From: a virus
Direction: 5' to 3' (one strand)
Length of the DNA: 64,000 bases
IMG/VR virus record: IMGVR_UViG_3300010430_000004
Coordinates: 104,537-168,536 of that record
Part shown: one piece after another, positions 3,500 through 51,782 of the stretch
Numbering within the stretch: position 1 is the stretch's first letter
Layout of the letters: every line of letters begins with the position of its first letter
Notes under the pieces: generated by a model
Told to the model about the DNA's origin: nothing
The model's database searches: none
Seen by the model: the letters and a program-made list of their open reading frames with translations, nothing else
Made by a program: the position numbers and the translations under genes

Positions 3500-3807
3500 G
3501 CATCAAAGACAAAGAAGTCACTATTGAAGAATTTGCTAAATGGGCAAGTAATAATAAAAACTATACATGGTATCATGGAAAAGGCGGTGGCTTTGATTTT
3601 GGCGGCACTAATTGTCCCTTTATTAAATATATGCGCCCTGCATTGGATACTCGTGACATGAAGGTTTATAGAATAGAGTGTGACCGTAAAGAATATACTA
3701 CAGATTTTAGAGACGAAGGCGAAGGTACTATCCTTGATATTTTATCCGCTAAACTAGAAAAAGCTATGAAAAACCACAACAAAGAAATGGAGAAAGAAAA
3801 TGAGTAA
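3496..3807 (+). CDS. hypothetical protein
   Basis: RBS GGTGG, ATGA coupling. Confidence 0.7.
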   Translation: MSIKDKEVTIEEFAKWASNNKNYTWYHGKGGGFDFGGTNCPFIKYMRPALDTRDMKVYRIECDRKEYTTDFRDEGEGTILDILSAKLEKAMKNHNKEMEKENE

Positions 3808-4432
3808 TGGAATAGTCAAACAATTCGCCACTTCTGATTGGCACGTTGGACATCATAATGTTATTGATTTCTCTAACAGGCCCTTCAAGGATACTCGTGA
3901 TATGCACAGAGTATTGATTAATAATTATAACTCTACCGTACCTGAAGATGGCATTTGCTATTTTGTAGGCGACATGGGCATGGGAAATCCACTTACTCTT
4001 AAACACGTTATTAAAGAGCTAAACGGTACTAAAATTTTAGTACTAGGAAATCACGACAAAGGATTAAACAAGATGTACAGTCTAGGCTTTGACGTAGTAA
4101 CGTTTGGAGCGATCTTTGATATTTGTGGTGAGCAAGTAACAATGACCCATTGCCCTCTAAGAGACACATACAGAGAAGATACAAGCAAAATGAAAGAAGG
4201 CGAGCTTTGTCCTAACTGGCATGGTGAGCATAGAAAAAAATATAAAAAATATACCATTCCTAATTGGGGCCAATATCATCTTCACGGCCATATCCACTCT
4301 CCAAACTCTGGTCAATCAAAAAAGATTGAAGGTAGACAAATGGATGTTGGAGTAGATGCTAACGGATATCGCCCAGTAAGTTGGAGTGCCATTGAATCAT
4401 GGATAGCAAAGACTAAAAATGTCAAAGGGTAA
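3800..4432 (+). CDS. calcineurin-like metallophosphoesterase
   Basis: SDWHVGH, VGD, LGNHD, THCP, HLHGHIH, DVGVD motifs. Confidence 0.9.
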   Translation: MSNGIVKQFATSDWHVGHHNVIDFSNRPFKDTRDMHRVLINNYNSTVPEDGICYFVGDMGMGNPLTLKHVIKELNGTKILVLGNHDKGLNKMYSLGFDVVTFGAIFDICGEQVTMTHCPLRDTYREDTSKMKEGELCPNWHGEHRKKYKKYTIPNWGQYHLHGHIHSPNSGQSKKIEGRQMDVGVDANGYRPVSWSAIESWIAKTKNVKG

Positions 4433-4870: not shown

Positions 4871-5078
4871 TGATTACATAAACAATATAATAGTAAAGAC
4901 TAAATATTCTTATTCTCTTAATGATAGAAGTTTTCACATGGAAACCCACTGGTCTAATTATTGTATGGAAGATTTCGTAAGTGTAGCTGGATTTACTAAT
5001 ACTGAAAATTACGATGAAATTGAAACAGAAGATATAGCCACGGATATAGAAGACCATGATCATTATAGCGACGAGTGA
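4863..5078 (+). CDS. small acidic protein, tandem paralog 3 of 3
   Basis: Same 41-aa core; acidic C-terminus. Confidence 0.75.
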   Translation: MNDDYINNIIVKTKYSYSLNDRSFHMETHWSNYCMEDFVSVAGFTNTENYDEIETEDIATDIEDHDHYSDE

Positions 5079-5754
5079 TACTCATTATAGGCACGAAAAA
5101 GTGGAGCTAGCTCCAGGTGATGTGTTTATTCATGCCGGAGACAACAACGCTGGTGGACCAAGCTGTGCTCGTGATTTTATTGAATGGGTTGGCGAACTTA
5201 ATTACAAACATAAAATAATTATTGCAGGCAACCATGATAATGCCTTTGCCGATGATCCCAAGTATATTGAGCAATTATGTAAAGATAATGGGGTCATATA
5301 CCTAAACGATTCTGGAGTAGAGATTGATGGGGTTAAGTTCTGGGGAAGCCCATGGACACCTAAGTATGGATTAGACATTTATGTATTTAACGCTGCACGT
5401 TCAGTAACCGAACAAGCATTCTTAGGTTTTAAATATCCATTAATAGAAGAAAAGTGGGCTCTTATCCCTGAAGATACTGACGTATTGATTACCCACGGCC
5501 CAGCTTATGATGTTCTTGACGTAAACAAAAAAGGCATACCTTGTGGGTGCGTAGAGTTGAGAAAAGCCATAGAAAAAATAAAACCACAGGTTCATATCTT
5601 TGGTCACATTCACGAAGGCGCTGGAGATACTAAAATAAATGAGACTGAATACTATAACGTGGCTTACTTTGGTAAGATTACAAGGCACTCTCGTAACGAA
5701 TACACTATTGAAAAAAATCCAGCAAGCATGATTTATATTGACGATAATAAATAA
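5056..5754 (+). CDS. metallophosphoesterase (MPPED/239FB-like)
   Basis: SDTH, HAGD, AGNHD, LITHGP, HIFGHIHE motifs. Confidence 0.9.
   Translation: MIIIATSDTHYRHEKVELAPGDVFIHAGDNNAGGPSCARDFIEWVGELNYKHKIIIAGNHDNAFADDPKYIEQLCKDNGVIYLNDSGVEIDGVKFWGSPWTPKYGLDIYVFNAARSVTEQAFLGFKYPLIEEKWALIPEDTDVLITHGPAYDVLDVNKKGIPCGCVELRKAIEKIKPQVHIFGHIHEGAGDTKINETEYYNVAYFGKITRHSRNEYTIEKNPASMIYIDDNK
5742..5748 (+). promoter_or_regulatory. candidate class II promoter element CGATAAT upstream of the ncRNA
   Basis: Same YGATAHT motif precedes seven other gene starts; the spacing predicts a TSS near G5757. Confidence 0.45.
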
Positions 5755-5756
5755 TT

Positions 5757-6103
5757 GAATCTCCAGTCTGGACGGTGCGGTGTCGAAAGCCCACGTTCTT
5801 CCTGGACCGAGGGTTATGTGCGAGGCATATTAAAATGGTTGCTAAGATCTGCCCTTTACTTGTGGTATAGTCCATGAACTTACCACAGCCCCTAGAGATA
5901 GGTAGCTCCTTGATCTAGTAGAGGCTCTGCAAGCCTACACTGTTACTAGACGCGTCTAGACAGTTGTTTTTAAGCCCTATTATGGGCAGAACAAGCAGCG
6001 CATGGTGGATGTAGGAAACGCCACTAGGAGTCACAATCCTCTCAGCAGCTCAATGATACGGGGCAACAGCTGGAAAACTGTGAGGTTGCGGCTCGCTTTT
6101 TTT
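5757..6103 (+). ncRNA. large structured non-coding RNA candidate, family not recognised
   Basis: ORF-free, visibly GC-richer than flanks, tiled by abutting hairpins with G-U pairs on the + strand, ends in T7. Confidence 0.75.
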
Positions 6104-6171
6104 ATTCAGCTCAAATCTGAGCCGAGCAAAATCTTCAATAATTTCAATGACTTTATTCTCTAAAAATTTAC

Positions 6172-6200
6172 TAGCATTTTTTAATAATCCATGTTATATT
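6172..6200 (+). promoter_or_regulatory. class I sigma70-type phage promoter
   Basis: TAGCAT-17nt-TATATT with extended -10 CATGT and A-tract upstream. Confidence 0.85.
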
Positions 6201-6221
6201 TAACTCAACAAAGGAAATAAA

Positions 6222-6437
6222 ATGGTTTATTTAATAGTTGTAGGCTTAATATGTACCACAGGCACTATTGATTGTTATTCAAAAATAAATAACAAAGCCG
6301 AGAAAATAAACGTTACTAGAGAAATGACCAAAAAAGAGTGTGTAGAGAAGACAATGATTCTTAGAAAATATATAACAGACAATAAATTAGGAAAACCTAT
6401 AGTTGTTTGTAGAATAAACTGGGAGAAGGTACAATGA
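6222..6437 (+). CDS. small secreted/membrane protein
   Basis: Hydrophobic N-terminus, four Cys, RBS AGGA. Confidence 0.65.
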   Translation: MVYLIVVGLICTTGTIDCYSKINNKAEKINVTREMTKKECVEKTMILRKYITDNKLGKPIVVCRINWEKVQ

Positions 6438-6850
6438 ATCCAAGAACGCCTAAATTTTTTAACAATGGAATTGAAGTCAAACACATTTCTGAGAAAAAAG
6501 GCAGAGGTGTATTTGCTACTCGTACTATTAAAAAAGGTGAAGTATTTGAAATAGCGCCCTGCCTAATAGTGCCCCATGATGAGAGTGAACTAGTAAACGA
6601 CACTTTTTTAGGTTTTTATACCTATTCTCCTCCAGGGCCAACTAAGGATGAGGATGAAGAAACATACGATGAGTGCTCAATTATTGCTCTTGGTTATGGA
6701 TCTTTATATAATACTAACAAGAACCCAAACGCTGACTATGCTGTTTATTATAACCATGCTAAATACTTTGCGCTAAGAACTATTAAAAAGGGCGAAGAAA
6801 TATTAATAAACTATGGTTGGGATGAGTCTTATACAAAGGATTTTGAATGA
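6434..6850 (+). CDS. SET domain protein (lysine methyltransferase-like)
   Basis: KGRGVFATRTIKKGE, GSLYN..PNA, IKKGEEILINYG. Confidence 0.9.
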   Translation: MNPRTPKFFNNGIEVKHISEKKGRGVFATRTIKKGEVFEIAPCLIVPHDESELVNDTFLGFYTYSPPGPTKDEDEETYDECSIIALGYGSLYNTNKNPNADYAVYYNHAKYFALRTIKKGEEILINYGWDESYTKDFE

Positions 6851-9650: not shown

Positions 9651-9988
9651 AAATTTTATATATAATTTTATTAACTTTTGCTATACAATCAGCACAAGCT
9701 TTTACAGCAAAAGACGCAAAAACTTTGGCTAATATTAGTAATCTAACCACAGAAGCAGAAAATGACGCTGAAATATGCAAACTTAATATACTAAAAGATG
9801 TTAGAAAAAAAGCAACTAAAGGTTATTCAATCCTTTTCTTAATAATGAATGATAGAGACTCTTGCAGTTGGGGAAATGTCCCAGAACTAGTTTCTAAAAA
9901 ACTCGAAAAGATGGGATATAGTACGCATTTAGTTGAAGCTGGAATTAACGGTAATAAATGGACTAGAATATTGACGGTAGGGTGGTAA
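9647..9988 (+). CDS. secreted small protein
   Basis: Signal-peptide-like MKILYIILLTFAIQSAQA. Confidence 0.65.
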   Translation: MKILYIILLTFAIQSAQAFTAKDAKTLANISNLTTEAENDAEICKLNILKDVRKKATKGYSILFLIMNDRDSCSWGNVPELVSKKLEKMGYSTHLVEAGINGNKWTRILTVGW

Positions 9989-9989
9989 T

Positions 9990-10328
9990 ATGCAAGGCGC
10001 AATACTAAATGAATTATTAAGCACCATGGACGCTAAGATGTTCAATCTGGCTGTTCAGTTGTTGCTTTTCGGAGCTATCGGTTTTTGGCTAAAAGACATG
10101 AATAGTCGTATAGTAAATTATTACAAACTTAAGATGAGTGATTTTGGCCGTGGAACAAAAGTTCTTATACTAGGACACGAAGGATTTATTAGTCGGATCG
10201 GATTCAACGAAGTAGAGATTACTATAGATGTAGACAAGACCCTTTTCATTCCAGTAAATAAGTTTATAAGCACTGACAAGATCATTGTAGCTAAACAAGT
10301 TCACCAAAAAATAAGGGATGAGAAATGA
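9990..10328 (+). CDS. truncated MscS-family-like protein (one TM + beta domain)
   Basis: FGRGTKVLILGHEGFISRIGF...TLFIPVNKF matches the MscS middle beta-domain pattern. Confidence 0.6.
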   Translation: MQGAILNELLSTMDAKMFNLAVQLLLFGAIGFWLKDMNSRIVNYYKLKMSDFGRGTKVLILGHEGFISRIGFNEVEITIDVDKTLFIPVNKFISTDKIIVAKQVHQKIRDEK

Positions 10329-51311: not shown

Positions 51312-51590
51312 ATGAAATCTAAAAACGGACAATTTTGGATGGAAGCTAGTATAGCAACCAACGATGATGATAAAATACTTGAAGTCACTGCTGGACCCTA
51401 TGATTATAACGCCAATACAGATGGGTTTAAGGTAACTATAAAAAGCTGTGATATAAAAGATCCAAAAATATATACAGAGCTTTGGCTAACCCCTAGAGAA
51501 CTTGATAGTGTTGCCAAAATGTTTGCTGCTGTTAGAAAGCATCACAATACTATGGCTAAATATGAAAAAGGAGATAAGGATGAGAATTGA
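51312..51590 (+). CDS. hypothetical protein
   Basis: Operon tiling. Confidence 0.65.
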   Translation: MKSKNGQFWMEASIATNDDDKILEVTAGPYDYNANTDGFKVTIKSCDIKDPKIYTELWLTPRELDSVAKMFAAVRKHHNTMAKYEKGDKDEN

Positions 51591-51782
51591 TATTTGTGTA
51601 GTTTTAATTAGTGCCTTTATCGAAAAGAACCAAATCTGGCTTGCTGGCTCACCTGGATGCCAATTTGCTGAGGTTTATAGTGTTGCCCAAGATAATGGCG
51701 ATGAAGAAATTATGGCTTGCCTAGACAGGGTAGATGAGCTTGGAATGGTTGAACACTGCTTTAGCGAGCTATAGGAGAGGTT

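What the first reader, a model, noticed from the sequence alone, without database searches (positions are those of the whole stretch)
5757..6103. ~350-nt densely structured non-coding RNA of unrecognised class
Seen: this is the only long ORF-free stretch in the window and is clearly GC-richer than its flanks. Helices abut with 0-4 nt linkers: TCCAG5762/CTGGA5802; AGGGT5810/GCCCT5851 enclosing TATGT/GCATA; TGTGGTA5861/TACCACA5881; CTAGA5892/TCTAG5914; AGGCT5922/AGCCT5932; ACTGT..CTAGA-CGCG-TCTAG-ACAGT 5939-5964; TGTTTT..GCCC/GGGC..AGAACA 5965-5993. A multibranch 3' domain is closed by AGCAGCGCA5994/TGCGGCTCGCT6087 and followed by T7. Several G-U pairs work only on the + strand, which points to an RNA rather than a DNA cruciform. 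It lacks the hallmark sequences of tmRNA, RNase P and SRP. Inference: a novel phage ncRNA (scaffold, sponge or ribozyme).
Basis: partly seen in the sequence, partly recalled or inferred. Interest (0 to 1): 0.82.

Follow-up and report, generated by a model that had tools for sequence, protein, structure and literature searches.

The report
Modular phage RNA with antitoxin-like pseudoknot
The gene-free stretch is very probably a real, uncatalogued non-coding RNA gene of a large uncultured phage, built from exchangeable folded modules and ending in a small pseudoknot shaped like the RNA antitoxin ToxI, which suggests but does not show that it is a decoy against host RNA-cutting defences.

Summary
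The stretch is real and non-coding, but not unusually stable (MFE z -1.1). The evidence is comparative. Homologues sit beside orthologous genes in related phages (L081/L219/L220, L216-218). All 25 position-equivalent base pairs of the three 5' domains hold, 13 through two-sided changes. Between two close phages the 5' 219 nt are 98.6% identical against 72-78% at third codon positions, while the central hairpin block is replaced outright. A phage-type promoter motif precedes it; a hairpin and U7 close it.

The 3' domain is an H-type pseudoknot (6027-6039, 6079-6083) with a covarying stem. It recurs at the end of a different RNA in unrelated phages, alone behind a gene in other relatives, and twice in L081. 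Its commonest form copies the ToxI core (GGUG, loop, UACC, AAGU, second stem), but the tandem repeats, tails and Rfam match are missing, and the window's copy is degenerate.

No Rfam or literature match was found. Best reading: a mix-and-match decoy RNA against host RNases or RNA-binding proteins (about 40%). Expression and function are untested.

The parts
5056..5754 (+). Calcineurin-like metallophosphoesterase gene, upstream neighbour; its orthologue (65% identical) also precedes the homologous RNA in L081/L216/L219, with an 84-aa ORF in between
5742..5753 (+). Phage promoter-like motif (CGATAAT-AAATA) in the last codons of the upstream gene; probable start of the RNA at about 5755-5756 (inferred)
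   Evidence: matrix built from 12 other sites of this genome ranks it 29 of 337,040 positions; the same motif scores higher before the L081 and L216 homologues
5755..6103 (+). Whole predicted RNA, about 349 nt
   Evidence: nhmmer match over its full length to L081:1388-1744, E 9e-5 among all loci; no ATG-started ORF of 25 aa or more inside it
5762..5806 (+). Domain 1: long bulged hairpin (5762-66/5802-06, 5770-73/5795-98, 5775-77/5792-94, 5779-81/5789-91); the loop 5782-5788 holds the palindrome UCGA, kept in L081 and L216
   Evidence: 15 of 15 pairs kept, 6 two-sided and 2 one-sided changes against L081
5810..5855 (+). Domain 2: closing helix 5810-14/5851-55 between conserved linkers; inner fold not conserved
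   Evidence: 5 of 5 pairs kept, 2 two-sided and 1 one-sided change
5861..5887 (+). Domain 3: hairpin with an inner 3-bp stem; position-equivalent hairpin of different sequence in L081 and L216
   Evidence: pair probability 0.96; (placement by hand, less firmly anchored)
5892..6024 (+). Exchangeable block of five hairpins (5892-5918, 5922-5936, 5939-5964, 5965-5993, 6005-6024); three loops hold 4-nt palindromes
   Evidence: 50% identity to the L081 block against 48% for shuffles; L081 and L216 blocks are also unrelated, 50% against 47%; helices
6027..6039 (+). Pseudoknot stem 1 (6027-30/6036-39) with loop UCACA (6031-35)
   Evidence: 42 of 44 cells paired over 11 copies; pair 2 is U-A, C-G or A-U and pair 4 is G-C, C-G or A-U; shuffle test on 6 distinct forms p 0.003
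6040..6078 (+). Variable insert in the long loop of the pseudoknot; holds a hairpin 6048-51/6061-64 whose loop motif AYGAUA also occurs in L081 and L216, there just upstream of the pseudoknot
   Evidence: distance between the two strands of stem 2 is 9 to 76 nt among copies
6079..6084 (+). Pseudoknot stem 2, 3' strand (UGUGAG), complementary to the loop; invariant, so not tested by covariation
   Evidence: present in all 11 copies
6088..6103 (+). Short terminal hairpin (6088-90/6094-96, loop GCU) and U7: terminator-like 3' end
   Evidence: stem changes with compensation in L222, L238, L240 while the loop start GCU is kept; only terminator-like site of the region
6167..6200 (+). AT-rich sigma70-like promoter for the next gene, so the RNA is probably not its leader
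   Evidence: seen directly in the sequence; a similar stretch follows the L081 homologue; not called by the consensus scan

Best explanation
A stand-alone phage RNA of about 350 nt, made from its own phage-type promoter and ended by a hairpin and U tract. It is a string of modules: three conserved 5' stem-loop domains, a block of short hairpins that is swapped wholesale between close phages, and a 3' H-type pseudoknot with the architecture of the type III antitoxin ToxI. Shown here: non-coding conservation, the 5' helices, the pseudoknot's first stem, the exchange of the middle, and the spread of the pseudoknot module on its own. Inferred: that it is transcribed, and that it works in trans as a decoy. 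In that reading the pseudoknot binds a host RNase toxin or another pseudoknot-binding protein, the exchangeable hairpins are further baits that change with the host, and self-complementary loops may let copies stick together.
For: Homologues beside orthologous genes. 25 of 25 equivalent pairs kept, 13 by two-sided change. 5' half 98.6% identical against 72-78% at third codon positions; middle at shuffle level. Promoter motif in both lineages. The pseudoknot module occurs at the end of an unrelated RNA in DnaB/ERF phages (L116, L222, L226, L227), alone directly after a 67-aa ORF in phages with about 60% terminase identity (L238-L240), and twice in L081. ToxI and phage TE pseudo-ToxI read GGTG, 6 nt, TACC, TT(T), AAGT, then the strand that pairs with the loop (PMC3475682 supplements). 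Six of the 11 copies read GGTG, 5 nt, TACC, insert, (A)AGT, then the pairing strand, in the same register; such a pattern arises about 5 times in 2.9 Mb of reversed control sequence. ToxI is an H-type pseudoknot with a GUU triplex (PMC5086642); the top G-U pair and the later U are kept in 10 of 11 copies, and both change together in the window. Patchy presence, with no match in 8 near-complete related genomes, fits an accessory counter-defence gene.
Against: No expression data. Family A rests on three distinct sequences, two of which share their 5' half. The helices were placed by hand between conserved anchors. Stem 2 never varies, and the energy model gives it probability 0.0 in the window, preferring another helix (that model cannot form pseudoknots). 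The Rfam ToxI model does not hit the module, not even in its shortest form. There are no tandem repeats or conserved single-stranded tails, which ToxI needs to block its toxin. Long inserts in that loop are not known for ToxI (own knowledge). The window's own copy departs from the ToxI letters (GGAG/AUCC, AAAC). ToxI was picked after seeing the motif. The palindromic loops (5 of 9, P about 0.006, post hoc) are not enriched in L081 or L216.
Confidence: 0.4

Rival explanations
1. The pseudoknot-plus-hairpin module is a cis-acting 3' end device (a stability element against exonucleases, or a ligand-dependent terminator switch like the small H-type riboswitches). Phages put it at the end of whatever transcript needs it, and the rest of the RNA has a separate job.
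For: In 10 of 11 copies it lies directly before a short hairpin and a U-rich run; in L238-L240 it follows the stop codon of a gene within about 10 nt. In the window the stem-2 strand overlaps an alternative terminator stem, 6080-84/6092-96. In L116 and L226 a ribosome-binding site follows closely.
Against: An internal second copy in L081 has no terminator behind it. The overlap with a terminator stem is lost in L222, L238 and L240. No riboswitch family matches. In the window a separate promoter-like stretch follows.
Confidence: 0.25
2. A self-assembling scaffold RNA of the GOLLD/ROOL/OLE type: conserved ends, a variable linker, and copies joined by self-complementary kissing loops.
For: Conserved 5' and 3' parts around a free middle, as described for ROOL and GOLLD (PMC12286853). 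Five of nine window loops hold 4-nt palindromes. In the family B RNA that shares the 3' module, one loop is a 6-nt palindrome in four different sequences, the signature that paper uses for intermolecular kissing loops.
Against: That palindromic domain is absent from the window and its genome. Only the UCGA loop is kept in family A, without covariation. Modules occur alone and in different company, which a fixed cage would hardly allow. No Rfam match to GOLLD, ROOL or OLE.
Confidence: 0.15
3. A precursor that is cut into several small stable RNAs with separate roles, like the small stable RNAs of the T4 tRNA region (own knowledge).
For: Modules travel separately: L229 has the family B 5' domain without the pseudoknot; L238-L240 have the pseudoknot alone. 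The genome holds several other promoter-linked short folded segments.
Against: No tRNA or processing signal was found near any homologue scanned. This rival describes the processing, not the function, and does not exclude the decoy reading.
Confidence: 0.12
4. A DNA element (origin, cruciform array, recombination cassette) or a chance GC-rich spacer.
For: Folding energy is not exceptional. One perfect 14-bp palindrome lies at 5946-5959. No RNA data.
Against: G-U pairs and a pseudoknot are kept on one strand only; a promoter motif and U tract flank it in two lineages; it is missing from near-complete relatives, which an origin would not be.
Confidence: 0.08

Closest known systems
ToxI type III antitoxin RNA and phage TE pseudo-ToxI (Rfam RF02519; PMC3475682, PMC5086642)
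   Same: Small H-type pseudoknot with a 4-bp first stem topped by G-U, GGUG/UACC letters in the commonest form, AAGU directly before the second stem's 3' strand; carried by a phage with no toxin gene detected.
   Different: Loop of 5 nt instead of 6 with another sequence; one copy (two in L081) instead of 36-nt tandem repeats; inserts of up to about 70 nt in the long loop; no conserved tails; no Rfam score; the window's copy is degenerate.
GOLLD, ROOL and OLE large orphan RNAs (PMC12286853)
   Same: Phage-borne, uncatalogued function, conserved ends around a variable middle; covarying palindromic loop in the family B RNA.
   Different: No sequence or model match; 349 nt against more than 800 nt for many GOLLD RNAs; not beside tRNA genes; modules are exchanged between unrelated RNAs; oligomers not shown.
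raiA motif RNA (RF03072)
   Same: Similar size range and a few short words recalled from memory.
   Different: The model finds nothing in the genome at E up to 10.
Candidate structured RNAs of viruses (Fremin, Bhatt and Kyrpides 2023, PMC10690425)
   Same: Same kind of source data; a module could be among its 10,006 candidates.
   Different: Could not be checked: no supplementary files are held.

Membership tests
ToxI / pseudo-ToxI (type III antitoxin) | H-type pseudoknot core | tested here: met
   stem 1 covaries, 42 of 44 cells paired, p 0.003; stem 2 complementary in all 11 copies but invariant
ToxI / pseudo-ToxI (type III antitoxin) | Core letters GGUG, UACC and AAGU in register | tested here: inconclusive
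   met in L116, L226, L227, L238, L240 and nearly in the inner L081 copy; the window copy has GGAG/AUCC and AAAC
ToxI / pseudo-ToxI (type III antitoxin) | Tandem repeats of about 34-36 nt | tested here: not met
   no such direct repeats in 5600-6300; single copy in the genome
ToxI / pseudo-ToxI (type III antitoxin) | Match to Rfam RF02519 | tested here: not met
   no hit at the module in five genomes at E up to 10, none in the shortest form
ToxI / pseudo-ToxI (type III antitoxin) | Adjacent toxN gene (true TA operon; absent for a mimic) | tested here: inconclusive
   PF13958 not found in five records, but the control genomes did not ring either; neighbours are a phosphoesterase and a 71-aa ORF of no family
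ToxI / pseudo-ToxI (type III antitoxin) | Cleavage by and inhibition of a ToxN-type RNase | not testable with these tools
   needs an experiment
GOLLD / ROOL / OLE | Match to the family model | tested here: not met
GOLLD / ROOL / OLE | Position near tRNA islands (GOLLD, ROOL) | tested here: not met
   no tRNA gene in the window or nine homologous loci by ARAGORN; one tRNA 10.6 kb away in L116
GOLLD / ROOL / OLE | Covarying self-complementary loop | tested here: inconclusive
   met in the family B domain, which the window lacks; window loops palindromic without covariation
GOLLD / ROOL / OLE | RNA-only oligomer | not testable with these tools
   needs an experiment
tmRNA, RNase P RNA, SRP RNA, group I/II introns, known ribozymes and riboswitches | Match to Rfam or ARAGORN models | tested here: not met
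Retron or other RT-linked RNA | Reverse transcriptase gene in the genome | tested here: not met
   PF00078 absent, control rang in 4 genomes
CsrB/RsmZ-type sponge | Many GGA motifs | tested here: not met
   6 found, 5.8 expected; same in homologues

The most novel reading that the evidence does not exclude
Large uncultured phages build composite decoy RNAs from a shared pool of folded modules, exchanged between unrelated phages. One module is a ToxI-type pseudoknot that carries extra hairpins inside its long loop and neutralises type III-like RNase toxins of their hosts: a natural, mix-and-match RNA counter-defence array rather than the simple repeat expansion seen in phage TE.
Probability: 0.22. 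Interest if true: 0.85.

Novelty: new variant of a known kind. Interest (0 to 1): 0.64.

Why it matters
RNA mimics of antitoxins are known from very few phages, as expanded repeats (phage TE, PMC3475682). If the pseudoknot here is such a mimic, it shows the strategy spread as a portable module across unrelated environmental phages and built into larger RNAs with exchangeable parts. Its shortest form is about 24 nt, so the idea is directly testable against cloned toxins. If it is a 3' end device instead, it is still an uncatalogued structured RNA motif with covariation support, and the family B palindrome adds a new candidate for natural RNA dimerisation.

Tried and rejected
Rfam at gathering and E-value thresholds on the window and homologues: nothing. 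raiA model: nothing. blastn of the element or homologues against cultured phages and plasmids: nothing credible. Exact 5' motif scans: none in viral contigs, 29 unrelated matches in metagenomes. 3' motif in prokaryote genomes and three further viral contigs: chance matches in coding DNA. Models of the family A 5' domains and the family B domain over 50 and 48 viral records: only the training loci. Long-range pairing of domain 1 with the 3' end, which the energy model favours in L081: rejected, because the window's changes break those pairs but compensate in the local hairpin. Group I intron core in family B (a P7-like GACAC/GUGUC pairing): rejected, the middle base varies without its partner and L229 lacks the second strand. 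Mimicry of or complementarity to E. coli rRNA: 18 comparisons, one at p 0.01, as chance would give. Small peptide: no shared ORF. Palindromic loops over all homologues by MFE: 11 against 8.5 expected, not significant. Sequencing runs: one DNA run, probably the source sample, no variants; no RNA holder listed. Exact motif search in the literature: none. The ToxI plasmid record was not held.

Full report
Setting. The window lies in a 168.5-kb phage genome of 36% GC, found in one marine sediment DNA run. Its nearest cultured relative by terminase is Myxococcus phage Mx1 at 31% identity; the host is unknown. The finding fills most of a 467-nt gap between a metallophosphoesterase gene (5056-5754) and a 71-aa ORF followed by a SET-domain gene.

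Observation. The gap is the longest in the window, its GC content is in the top 0.06% of genome windows, and all listed helices are at the stated places. The folding energy is ordinary: z -1.13 on the + strand, -1.38 on the - strand, and -1.6 when only local hairpins are allowed. Rfam and ARAGORN give nothing. The single sequence therefore cannot carry the claim; homologues must.

Homologues, family A. The closest relative of the upstream phosphoesterase (65% identical) lies on L081, which holds a full-length match to the element (E 9e-5 among all loci) and orthologues of three genes that lie downstream in the window. Cluster members gave L219 and L220, nearly identical to L081, and L216-L218. 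Between L081 and L216 the first 219 nt of the RNA are 98.6% identical, while third codon positions of neighbouring genes are 72-78% identical. The next 150-175 nt are no more alike than shuffles (50% against 47%), and the last 61 nt are 87% identical. Both middles fold into short hairpins. The window's middle is a third unrelated block. A syntenic phage (L001, L082) has no such insert after the phosphoesterase gene, and 8 near-complete related genomes show no match.

5' structure. Placed between conserved anchor words, 25 of 25 base pairs in domains 1-3 hold in both the window and L081, 13 with changes on both sides and 3 on one side (an unadjusted MAFFT alignment gives 4 two-sided changes in 16 pairs). 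Three sequences are a thin basis, and domain 3 is the least firmly anchored.

Ends. A motif of the form CGATA(A/C/T)T followed by an A-rich run precedes many intergenic units of this genome. The copy at 5742 ranks 29 of 337,040 positions, and the same motif stands before L081 and L216. At the 3' end a 3-bp GC hairpin with loop GCU and U7 closes the element; the stem changes with compensation in L222, L238 and L240. An AT-rich promoter-like stretch follows at 6167-6200. A stand-alone transcript of about 349 nt is inferred, not shown.

The 3' module. An exact scan for the 3' end found L116 in an unrelated phage, next to DnaB and ERF genes, with no protein match to this genome; its relatives gave L222, L226 and L227. 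These family B RNAs share only the 3' module with the window, and L229 has their 5' domain without it. A model of the module then found it standing alone just after a 67-aa ORF in phages whose terminase is about 60% identical to the window's (L238-L240). L081 has a second copy inside its middle block. Over 11 copies a 4-bp stem encloses the invariant loop UCACA: 42 of 44 cells pair, two positions covary, and a shuffle test on the 6 distinct forms gives p 0.003. The loop is complementary to an invariant UGUGA downstream, at a distance of 9 to 76 nt, the longer gaps filled by separate hairpins. This is an H-type pseudoknot; in the window it is 6027-6039 with 6079-6083.

Comparison with ToxI. The ToxI repeat of Pectobacterium and the pseudo-ToxI of phage TE read GGTG, six loop bases, TACC, two or three T, AAGT, and then the strand that pairs with the loop (PMC3475682 supplements). 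The commonest form here reads GGTG, five loop bases, TACC, an insert, AAGT and the pairing strand, in the same register. A scan for that pattern finds the module copies plus 5 other places in 2.9 Mb, and 5 in reversed control sequence, about 1 in 1000 for a stretch of this size, before allowing for the fact that ToxI was chosen afterwards. ToxI has a GUU triplex between its stems (PMC5086642); the top G-U pair and the U before stem 2 are kept in 10 of 11 copies, and in the window both change together, to A and C. That these are the triplex bases is from my own knowledge. Against membership: no tandem repeats, no conserved tails, no hit with the Rfam ToxI model, long inserts, and a degenerate window copy. 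It is shaped like ToxI; it is not shown to be one.

Palindromic loops. In family B one loop is a 6-nt palindrome in four different sequences, on a covarying stem, the signature used for intermolecular kissing loops in OLE and GOLLD (PMC12286853). The window lacks that domain. Five of its nine loops hold 4-nt palindromes (P about 0.006, post hoc), but its homologues do not repeat this apart from the UCGA loop. This stays a secondary lead.

Mechanism and verdict. A real structured non-coding element is about 90% likely. Patchy presence, wholesale exchange of the middle, a doubled module and the ToxI-like core point to a decoy against host RNases or RNA-binding proteins (about 40%). A cis-acting 3' end device (25%), a self-assembling scaffold (15%), a precursor of small RNAs (12%) and a DNA element (8%) are the rivals; some overlap. 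No catalogue or paper searched holds it, though one large viral RNA catalogue could not be checked. Earlier notes of this scan report several other orphan modular phage RNAs (unchecked), so the general kind is not unique. What is new here is the portable ToxI-like pseudoknot and the documented cassette exchange. Novelty: new variant of a known kind. Interest 0.64.

Noticed in passing
L116:2535-2615 (-), L222:9240-9322, L226:3712-3792, L227:3328-3405, L229:1050-1130: A separate uncatalogued RNA domain (family B): three-way junction with a stem capped by a 6-nt palindrome that changes sequence (UGCGCA, UGUACA, UGAUCA, UCUAGA). Strong candidate for a kissing-loop dimer.
   Followed up: partly
L238:1506-1606, L239 and L240 near 1506-1575: The pseudoknot module alone, about 10 nt after the stop of a 67-aa ORF that follows an ATPase-like gene, about 1 kb from the chaperonin gene.
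   Followed up: partly
genome G000 C1:96748-96785 (+), outside the window: Weak match to the Rfam ToxI model (19.6 bits, E 0.037, below the cut-off of 50); not examined.
   Followed up: no
L133:15532-15600 (G000 C1 about 51531-51600): tRNA-like element (48 bits) with a 3-nt loop in place of the anticodon loop, behind the phage promoter motif.
   Followed up: no
G000 C1:45587-52650: At least nine short folded non-coding segments, each behind the same promoter motif; none matches Rfam except the tRNA-like one, and none shares a module with the finding.
   Followed up: partly
window 6108-6121: A further 5-bp hairpin directly after the U tract, not present after the L081 homologue.
   Followed up: no
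window 3800-4432: A second phosphoesterase-like ORF (metal-binding motifs seen by eye, no Pfam hit), separated from 5056-5754 by three small ORFs; L081 has an RNA ligase gene 2 kb downstream of its RNA. RNA end repair genes near the element would fit an anti-RNase role.
   Followed up: no
L227:3700-3760; L222:9520-9680 and 9860-9990: More non-coding folded segments behind the family B RNA, one with a T-arm-like hairpin and CCA end; not called by ARAGORN or Rfam.
   Followed up: no
L116:2320-2355 (-) and equivalents in L222, L226, L227: A conserved family B stem recalls the S8-binding helix of 16S rRNA (from memory); local alignment to E. coli rRNA was not significant.
   Followed up: partly
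window 6434-6850: SET-domain gene in a phage, two genes downstream of the RNA.
   Followed up: no
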